From assembly GCF_022846255.1 (NCBI RefSeq), contig NZ_AP025682.1: a DNA stretch of 64,000 bases, one strand, 5' to 3'. Both the position numbers and the translations under genes were made by a program. This document shows, piece after piece, positions 6,988 to 7,005 of this stretch; within the stretch, counting starts at the first letter, position 1, and each line of letters opens with the position of its first letter. The DNA is from Escherichia coli. Its GTDB lineage: Bacteria > Pseudomonadota > Gammaproteobacteria > Enterobacterales > Enterobacteriaceae. The notes under the pieces are model-generated. The model saw only the letters and a program-made list of their open reading frames with translations. It was not told the DNA's origin and did no database searches.

Positions 6988-7005
6988 TGTTTAATTTACT
7001 AAACA
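6988..7005. promoter_or_regulatory. candidate NadR operator TGTTTA-N6-TAAACA
   Basis: Perfect 6+6 palindrome immediately upstream of the nadB start codon; resembles the NAD-box as I recall it. Confidence 0.45.

What the first reader, a model, noticed from the sequence alone, without database searches (positions are those of the whole stretch)
6988..7005. Perfect TGTTTA-N6-TAAACA palindrome just upstream of nadB
The palindrome lies 7-26 nt upstream of the nadB start codon and fits my recollection of the NadR operator. A degenerate second copy (TGTTGT...TAAACA) lies ~35 bp further upstream.
Basis: partly seen in the sequence, partly recalled or inferred. Interest (0 to 1): 0.25.

Follow-up and report, generated by a model that had tools for sequence, protein, structure and literature searches.

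The report
Known NadR operator at nadB promoter
The perfect 18-bp palindrome just upstream of the E. coli nadB gene is the well-known binding site of the NAD-sensing repressor NadR, so the finding is correct but ordinary.

Summary
The window is E. coli chromosome (srmB-trmN-nadB / rseD-rpoE-rseABC-lepA). TGTTTAATTTACTAAACA at 6988-7005 is real. It is the only perfect TGTTTA-N6-TAAACA in 64 kb (0 of 100 shuffles) and ends 6 nt before the nadB ATG (6981, minus strand). The published NadR operator consensus is exactly TGTTTA-N6-TAAACA, and nadB is a classical NadR target. One-mismatch copies lie upstream of K-12 nadA and pncB. All 12 half-site bases are invariant in the window plus 79 other Enterobacteriaceae species loci. 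Other upstream columns average 66% and nadB third codon positions 45%. A conserved extended -10 (TGcTATGCT, 7024-7016, minus strand) lies 10-11 nt upstream. That puts the predicted start near 7009 and the operator at about +5 to +22, a blocking position. Verdict: already known, low interest. The only mildly open point is whether the two in-phase sites cooperate.

The parts
6988..7005 (.). Proximal NadR operator (O1). It is a perfect palindrome reading TGTTTAGTAAATTAAACA on the nadB-sense (minus) strand, 7-24 nt upstream of the nadB ATG.
   Evidence: Sequence read. It is unique in the window with 0 of 100 shuffles matching. It fits the published consensus. The half-sites are invariant in 80 of 80 loci and the full 18-mer is identical in 75 of 80.
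7062..7079 (-). Distal NadR-like site (O2), TGTTTAGCAACTGTAACA on the nadB-sense strand. It has N6 spacing, a perfect left half and two mismatches in the right half. It starts 74 bp from O1, at about -70 to -53 of the predicted promoter.
   Evidence: It is the only other hit in the nadB-rseD intergenic region (7062-7079) at up to 2 mismatches. The unbiased repeat finder pairs it with O1 at a spacing of 74. TGTTTAG is exact in 70 of 80 loci at 72-75 bp (68 of them at 73-74), and the other 10 have A/CGTTTAG. Right-half positions 15-17 (AAC) are conserved in 59, 69 and 70 of 70 loci, in the N6 register.
7028..7044 (-). Its TGTTTA (7044-7039) coincides with the predicted -35 hexamer position.
   Evidence: Sequence read. 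TGTTTA is present only in Escherichia species; other genera have GTGCGAT or GTGCTAT there.
7016..7024 (-). Predicted extended -10 element of the nadB promoter, TGcTATGCT (hexamer TATGCT at 7021-7016).
   Evidence: TGnTAnnnT lies 9-11 nt upstream of the palindrome in 78 of 80 loci and falls in a conserved block in the alignments. This is inferred, with no experimental start-site data retrieved. The tool's -35/-10 scan found nothing because the -35 is poor.
7006..7011 (-). Predicted nadB transcription start zone (about A7009), giving a leader of about 28 nt made mostly of the operator.
   Evidence: Inferred from the usual 7-nt distance downstream of the conserved -10. It was not verified experimentally here.
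7045..7061 (-). A/T-rich tract (AATATTAAAATAGCAGG) between O2 and the -35 position. It is a possible UP-like element.
   Evidence: An A-run is conserved in 66-70 of 70 loci at positions +26 to +28 from the O2 start, and in 53 and 67 of 70 at +29 and +30. Its function is inferred.
5359..6981 (-). nadB coding sequence (L-aspartate oxidase), the regulated gene.
   Evidence: ORF listed. NCBIfam NF006567 and TIGR00551 both score above their cut-offs. RefSeq annotates it as nadB.

Best explanation
The palindrome is the primary operator through which NadR represses nadB. NadR is an HTH-NMN adenylyltransferase-ribosylnicotinamide kinase protein. Its dimer, in the DNA-binding form favoured by high NAD, binds the two TGTTTA half-sites. 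The site lies immediately downstream of the predicted start (about +5 to +22) and 10 nt below the extended -10. Bound NadR would therefore exclude RNA polymerase or block its escape, shutting off the first enzyme of de novo NAD synthesis. When NAD falls and ATP occupies NadR, or when c-di-GMP binds it, NadR leaves the DNA and nadB is transcribed. A weaker conserved site 74 bp upstream probably assists occupancy. Shown here: sequence, uniqueness, the match to the published consensus, conservation, and equivalents at nadA and pncB. From the literature: NadR binding to the nadB promoter and nadB derepression in nadR mutants. Inferred: promoter and start-site position, the steric mechanism, and any role of the distal site.
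For: - **Match and uniqueness:** the site is a perfect and unique match to TGTTTA-N6-TAAACA.
- **Published consensus:** the consensus and the NadR-NAD dimer binding are stated in PMC2330245 and PMC2330246.
- **Regulation in E. coli:** nadB, nadA-pnuC and pncB are all up-regulated in nadR-mutant LTEE lines.
- **Host identity:** the window is E. coli; 5425 of 5426 genomes match this stretch.
- **Repressor domains:** K-12 NadR carries HTH_3 (residues 7-59) plus CTP_transf_like and AAA_28 domains.
- **Other regulon members:** K-12 nadA has TGTTTAGCATATAAAACA 73-90 nt upstream, and pncB has CGTTTAGTACAATAAACA 30-47 nt upstream.
- **Conservation:** the operator's mean column conservation is 0.995, against 0.656 for the other upstream columns and a median of 0.45 for nadB third codon positions, across 80 loci.
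- **Within-species variation:** E. coli genomes differ in the flanks but not in the 18-mer in the sampled variants.
Against: No binding or footprint data for this exact E. coli sequence could be retrieved; Penfound & Foster 1999 and Grose et al. 2005 are not held. The start site is predicted only, because the TSS supplements did not contain the position and the simple promoter scan found no -35/-10 pair. The spacer GTAAAT is almost as invariant as the half-sites, although the nadA and pncB spacers differ. Some additional constraint, such as the mRNA leader or translation, therefore also acts on this DNA.
Confidence: 0.93

Rival explanations
1. The inverted repeat acts mainly as an RNA hairpin in the short nadB leader (UGUUUA/UAAACA stem), modulating translation initiation or mRNA stability rather than binding a protein on DNA.
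For: The predicted start lies about 4 nt upstream, so the repeat would be transcribed. The minimum-free-energy fold of the leader contains the 6-bp stem. nadB has no recognisable Shine-Dalgarno, and only 2-8 nt separate the repeat from the ATG. The spacer (loop) sequence is unusually conserved.
Against: The stem is six A-U/G-U-type pairs, and the whole leader folds no better than shuffles (z = -0.97, with 33 of 200 shuffles folding as well). Rfam gave no match. Both arms are invariant in 80 loci with no compensatory change, which is the pattern of a protein-read DNA site and not of a structure. The same motif at nadA lies 73-90 nt upstream of the ATG and overlaps a -10-like TATAAA, which an RNA role would not explain.
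Confidence: 0.03
2. The site serves another regulator or the divergent rpoE upstream promoters rather than nadB.
For: The 255-bp intergenic region is shared with rseD-rpoE. rpoE is reported to have six promoters, several of them far upstream (PMC6358824). My unverified recollection places the most distal one close to the palindrome.
Against: The positions of the rpoE promoters could not be retrieved. The motif is exactly the NadR consensus and is repeated at the two other NadR-regulated promoters. Its distance to the nadB ATG and to the nadB -10 is conserved.
Confidence: 0.03
3. It is a chance palindrome in A/T-rich intergenic DNA.
For: At up to 2 mismatches the window holds six other hits, presumably chance (8 found against 2.85 expected).
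Against: No shuffle gave a perfect match. The site is invariant in 80 loci while third codon positions are near saturation. Four half-sites lie within 92 bp against 0.27 expected.
Confidence: 0.005

Closest known systems
NadR operators of Salmonella/E. coli nadA-pnuC and pncB (the NadR regulon)
   Same: They share the 18-bp dyad TGTTTA-N6-TAAACA and the extended left arm TGTTTAG (nadA TGTTTAGCATATAAAACA; pncB CGTTTAGTACAATAAACA). They lie at promoters of NAD synthesis or salvage genes. The consensus is from PMC2330245 and PMC2330246.
   Different: The nadB copy is the only perfect one of the three in E. coli. It lies closest to the start codon (7-24 nt) and is accompanied by a conserved weaker copy 74 bp upstream. 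No second copy was found near nadA or pncB at up to 3 mismatches.
Predicted NadR site upstream of Proteus mirabilis niaP (TGTTTAGTATACTAAACA; PMC2330245)
   Same: It is a perfect dyad with the same TGTTTAGTA start.
   Different: It serves a different target gene (a niacin transporter) and has a different spacer.
Two-operator repression systems such as lac O1/O3, gal OE/OI and deo
   Same: Each has a strong operator at or just after the start site plus a weaker auxiliary operator tens of bp away, at an integral number of helical turns. Here the spacing is 73-74 bp, about 7 turns.
   Different: No evidence exists here that NadR bridges two sites. The constant spacing may simply reflect the rigid promoter elements lying between them.

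Membership tests
NadR operator (enterobacterial NadR regulon) | An 18-bp inverted repeat TGTTTA-N6-TAAACA | tested here: met
   6988-7005 matches with 0 mismatches. The consensus is as printed in PMC2330245 and PMC2330246.
NadR operator (enterobacterial NadR regulon) | Location in the promoter region of a NAD de novo or salvage gene (nadA-pnuC, nadB, pncB) | tested here: met
   The site is 7-24 nt upstream of nadB and 10 nt downstream of a conserved extended -10.
NadR operator (enterobacterial NadR regulon) | The host encodes a NadR with the N-terminal HTH domain, which is found only in enterobacteria | tested here: met
   The window is E. coli. K-12 nadR is annotated as a repressor and has HTH_3 at residues 7-59 plus CTP_transf_like and AAA_28. 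The nadR gene of this particular strain lies outside the window.
NadR operator (enterobacterial NadR regulon) | The site is conserved upstream of orthologous genes in related genomes | tested here: met
   The half-sites are invariant in the window plus 79 species loci, and the 18-mer is identical in 75 of 80.
NadR operator (enterobacterial NadR regulon) | Direct, effector-modulated binding of NadR to this DNA | not testable with these tools
   The literature gives EMSA and ChIP-qPCR on the Salmonella nadB promoter (PMC12421817). The exact footprint papers are not held.
NadR operator (enterobacterial NadR regulon) | nadR-dependent repression of the downstream gene in vivo | not testable with these tools
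   The literature reports nadB up-regulated in all nadR-mutant LTEE lines of E. coli (bioRxiv 10.1101/2021.01.12.426406).
   The spacer is 5 nt. Only one half matches. The element is present only in Escherichia.
NadR operator - distal site (7062-7079) | N6 spacing, half-site match, and conservation | tested here: inconclusive
   The N6 register is kept, the left half is perfect and conserved, and the right half keeps AAC(A) but differs at two inner positions. Binding has not been tested.

The most novel reading that the evidence does not exclude
The perfect operator and the conserved weaker site 73-74 bp upstream (about 7 helical turns, same face of the DNA) are bound together by a NadR multimer. 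This would enclose the whole nadB promoter, including the UP-like tract, the -35 and the extended -10, in a small repression loop. nadB would then be the most tightly controlled member of the regulon. I could not establish whether the distal site is already recorded in RegulonDB, RegPrecise or Gerasimova & Gelfand 2005.
Probability: 0.3. Interest if true: 0.3.

Novelty: already known. Interest (0 to 1): 0.08.

Why it matters
The finding confirms that a reader without tools recognised a textbook regulatory site, so there is nothing new for NAD biology. Three by-products are useful. First, the operator arrangement at nadB is now described cleanly: a perfect O1 at about +5 to +22, a conserved auxiliary O2 at about -70 to -53, and an extended -10 promoter. 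Third, the nadB leader appears to lack a Shine-Dalgarno sequence and consists almost entirely of the operator. That leader may explain why even the operator spacer is frozen across Enterobacteriaceae.

Tried and rejected
- **Primary NadR papers:** Penfound & Foster 1999 (PMC93422) and Grose et al. 2005 (PMC1070365) are not held.
- **Experimental nadB start site:** the supplements of Kim et al. 2012 and Ettwiller et al. 2016 held no matching coordinate. Thomason et al. 2015 is not held. Full-text searches for the 18-mer, 'NadR box' and 'nadB promoter' gave nothing useful.
- **rpoE distal promoter positions:** these were wanted to test overlap with the operator. Klein et al. 2016 is not held, and the reviews give no coordinates. 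The idea is left as an unverified side note.
- **Built-in promoter and terminator scan of 6900-7400:** it returned no hits. The nadB promoter has too poor a -35 to pass, so the -10 was identified by conservation instead.
- **Rfam scan of 6800-7450:** it returned no hits.
- **NadR motif near K-12 nadR:** none was found at up to 3 mismatches in the promoter region. The autoregulation reported for some enterobacteria is therefore not evident in E. coli by this test.
- **Ungapped stacking anchored on the palindrome:** this blurred the -10 because of 1-nt indels. The MAFFT alignment and regex counts were used instead.

Full report
**Context**

The 901 bases around the finding match 5425 of 5426 complete E. 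coli genomes at 95-100% identity. RefSeq annotation of the best hit gives the order srmB, trmN, nadB (minus strand in the window) and, divergently, rseD, rpoE, rseA, rseB, rseC and lepA. In the window nadB is the 540-aa ORF 5359..6981 on the minus strand. It scores 1046 bits on the NCBIfam L-aspartate oxidase equivalog, against a cut-off of 629. The ATG occupies 6981..6979.

**Observation**

The + strand at 6988..7005 reads TGTTTA ATTTAC TAAACA. On the nadB-sense strand this is TGTTTAGTAAATTAAACA.

- It is a perfect match to TGTTTA-N6-TAAACA and the only one in 64 kb. None of 100 dinucleotide-preserving shuffles contained one.
- No further site appears at up to 1 mismatch.
- It lies 7-24 nt upstream of the ATG.
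- The half-site hexamer occurs 30 times in the window (0.47 per kb), but four copies fall within 92 bp here against about 0.27 expected for the intergenic region.

**Identity**

Several lines of evidence identify the site as the NadR operator.

[quoted passage not shown] - **Binding.** NadR binds the nadB and nadA-pnuC promoters of S. Typhimurium in EMSA and ChIP-qPCR. [quoted passage not shown]
- **Regulation in E. coli.** nadB, nadA-pnuC and pncB are all up-regulated in long-term evolution lines, every one of which carries a nadR mutation (bioRxiv 10.1101/2021.01.12.426406).
- **Repressor domains.** K-12 NadR has an HTH_3 domain at residues 7-59 followed by cytidylyltransferase-like and AAA_28 domains.
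- **Other regulon members.** Scanning K-12 DNA around these genes with the same pattern finds TGTTTAGCATATAAAACA 73-90 nt upstream of nadA and CGTTTAGTACAATAAACA 30-47 nt upstream of pncB. Nothing was found near nadR itself.

All these sites, and the published Proteus niaP site, share the longer left arm TGTTTAG.

**Conservation**

A scan of one genome per species with NadB returned 80 Enterobacteriaceae loci at 83-97% protein identity, including Escherichia, Citrobacter, Enterobacter, Kluyvera, Lelliottia, Buttiauxella, Kosakonia, Raoultella and Mangrovibacter.

- All 79 loci with upstream DNA carry a perfect palindrome 2-8 nt before the start codon.
- Counting the window, the 18-mer is identical in 75 of 80 loci. 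Four have one spacer change and one has three. No half-site base changes anywhere.
- Mean column conservation is 0.995 in the operator, against 0.656 in the remaining upstream columns.
- Median identity at nadB third codon positions is 0.45.
- Within E. coli the 126-bp region drops to 90-95% identity in 604 genomes. In the sampled variants all differences lie outside the 18-mer.

**Promoter and mechanism (inferred)**

The consensus scan found no -35/-10 pair. The alignments, however, show a conserved block, GTGCTATGCT. In 78 of 80 loci a TGnTAnnnT motif lies 9-11 nt upstream of the palindrome.

In the window this block is TGcTATGCT at 7024..7016 on the minus strand, an extended -10. It predicts a start near A7009 and a leader of about 28 nt. 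The operator would then span about +5 to +22. From there a bound repressor, whose footprint normally exceeds the 18 bp, would clash with RNA polymerase at the -10/+1 region or block its escape.

The pncB site appears to be placed similarly, about 19 nt downstream of a TATACT hexamer. The nadA site overlaps a TATAAA. I recall that EcoCyc places the nadB start 26 nt before the ATG, which would be window 7007. I could not verify this with the tools.

**Second sites**

- It has a 5-nt spacer (TGTTTA-TTCGC-ACAACA on the sense strand).
- Its TGTTTA sits exactly where the -35 hexamer of the predicted promoter should be, 17 bp from the -10.
- It is replaced by GTGCGAT or GTGCTAT outside Escherichia.

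The better candidate is 7062..7079, TGTTTAGCAACTGTAACA on the sense strand.

- It is the only other hit in the nadB-rseD intergenic region (7062-7079) at up to 2 mismatches.
- The unbiased repeat finder pairs it with the operator at a spacing of 74.
- TGTTTAG is exact in 70 of 80 loci at 72-75 bp, with 68 of them at 73-74 bp. The other ten have A/CGTTTAG.
- Positions 15-17 (AAC) are conserved in the N6 register, while positions 13-14 differ from the consensus.

The spacing equals about 7 helical turns, so cooperative binding or looping is conceivable. The rigid promoter elements in between could equally explain the constant distance.

**Rivals**

- **RNA hairpin.** A hairpin would be present in the leader, but it is weak (whole-leader z = -0.97) and shows no covariation. 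Rfam finds nothing.
- **Chance.** This is excluded by the shuffles and the conservation.
- **Role at divergent rpoE promoters.** This cannot be assessed because their coordinates were not retrievable.

**Verdict**

The feature is the already-known NadR operator of nadB. Interest is low.

Residual points of mild interest:

- the conserved auxiliary site;
- the frozen spacer;
- the apparent absence of a Shine-Dalgarno sequence in a leader that is almost entirely operator.

Noticed in passing
window 6982-7009 (minus strand); loci L005-L084 upstream of nadB: nadB has no recognisable Shine-Dalgarno. Only 2-8 nt of variable sequence separate the invariant palindrome from the ATG in 80 loci, and the predicted leader of about 28 nt is A/U-rich. 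The operator spacer GTAAAT is identical in 75 of 80 loci although the nadA and pncB spacers differ. This suggests an extra constraint on this DNA, perhaps from translation initiation.
   Followed up: partly
window 7211-7254: An inverted repeat, CTGTAGAC-N22-GTCTACAG, brackets the rseD (rpoE leader peptide) start codon at 7237.
   Followed up: no
window 7269-7297 (+ strand): A sigma-E-type promoter-like sequence, GGAACTT-N16-TCTAA, lies inside the rseD reading frame upstream of rpoE. It is presumably the autoregulated rpoE promoter. It was read by eye.
   Followed up: no
loci L023-L066 (Enterobacter, Lelliottia and relatives), about 30-45 nt upstream of the nadB palindrome: A different dyad, TGCGA-N4-TCGCA, occupies the -35 region of nadB in these genera. 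Escherichia has TGTTTA there instead. It may be a site for another regulator (sequences listed).
   Followed up: no
window 6957-6981 (minus strand): In the minimum-free-energy fold the nadB start codon is paired in a 6-bp hairpin, AUGAAU...AUUCAU. The overall fold is not better than shuffles.
   Followed up: no
window 7356-7964: The mechanical ORF list starts rpoE at a GTG (7356, 202 aa). RefSeq annotates 191 aa starting at about 7389, overlapping the end of rseD.
   Followed up: no
window 7051-7079 (minus strand): In E. coli the distal TGTTTA (7079-7074) lies 17 bp upstream of TAAAAT (7056-7051), so a second upstream nadB promoter overlapping the distal NadR site is conceivable. The final T of the hexamer is not conserved in other genera.
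   Followed up: partly
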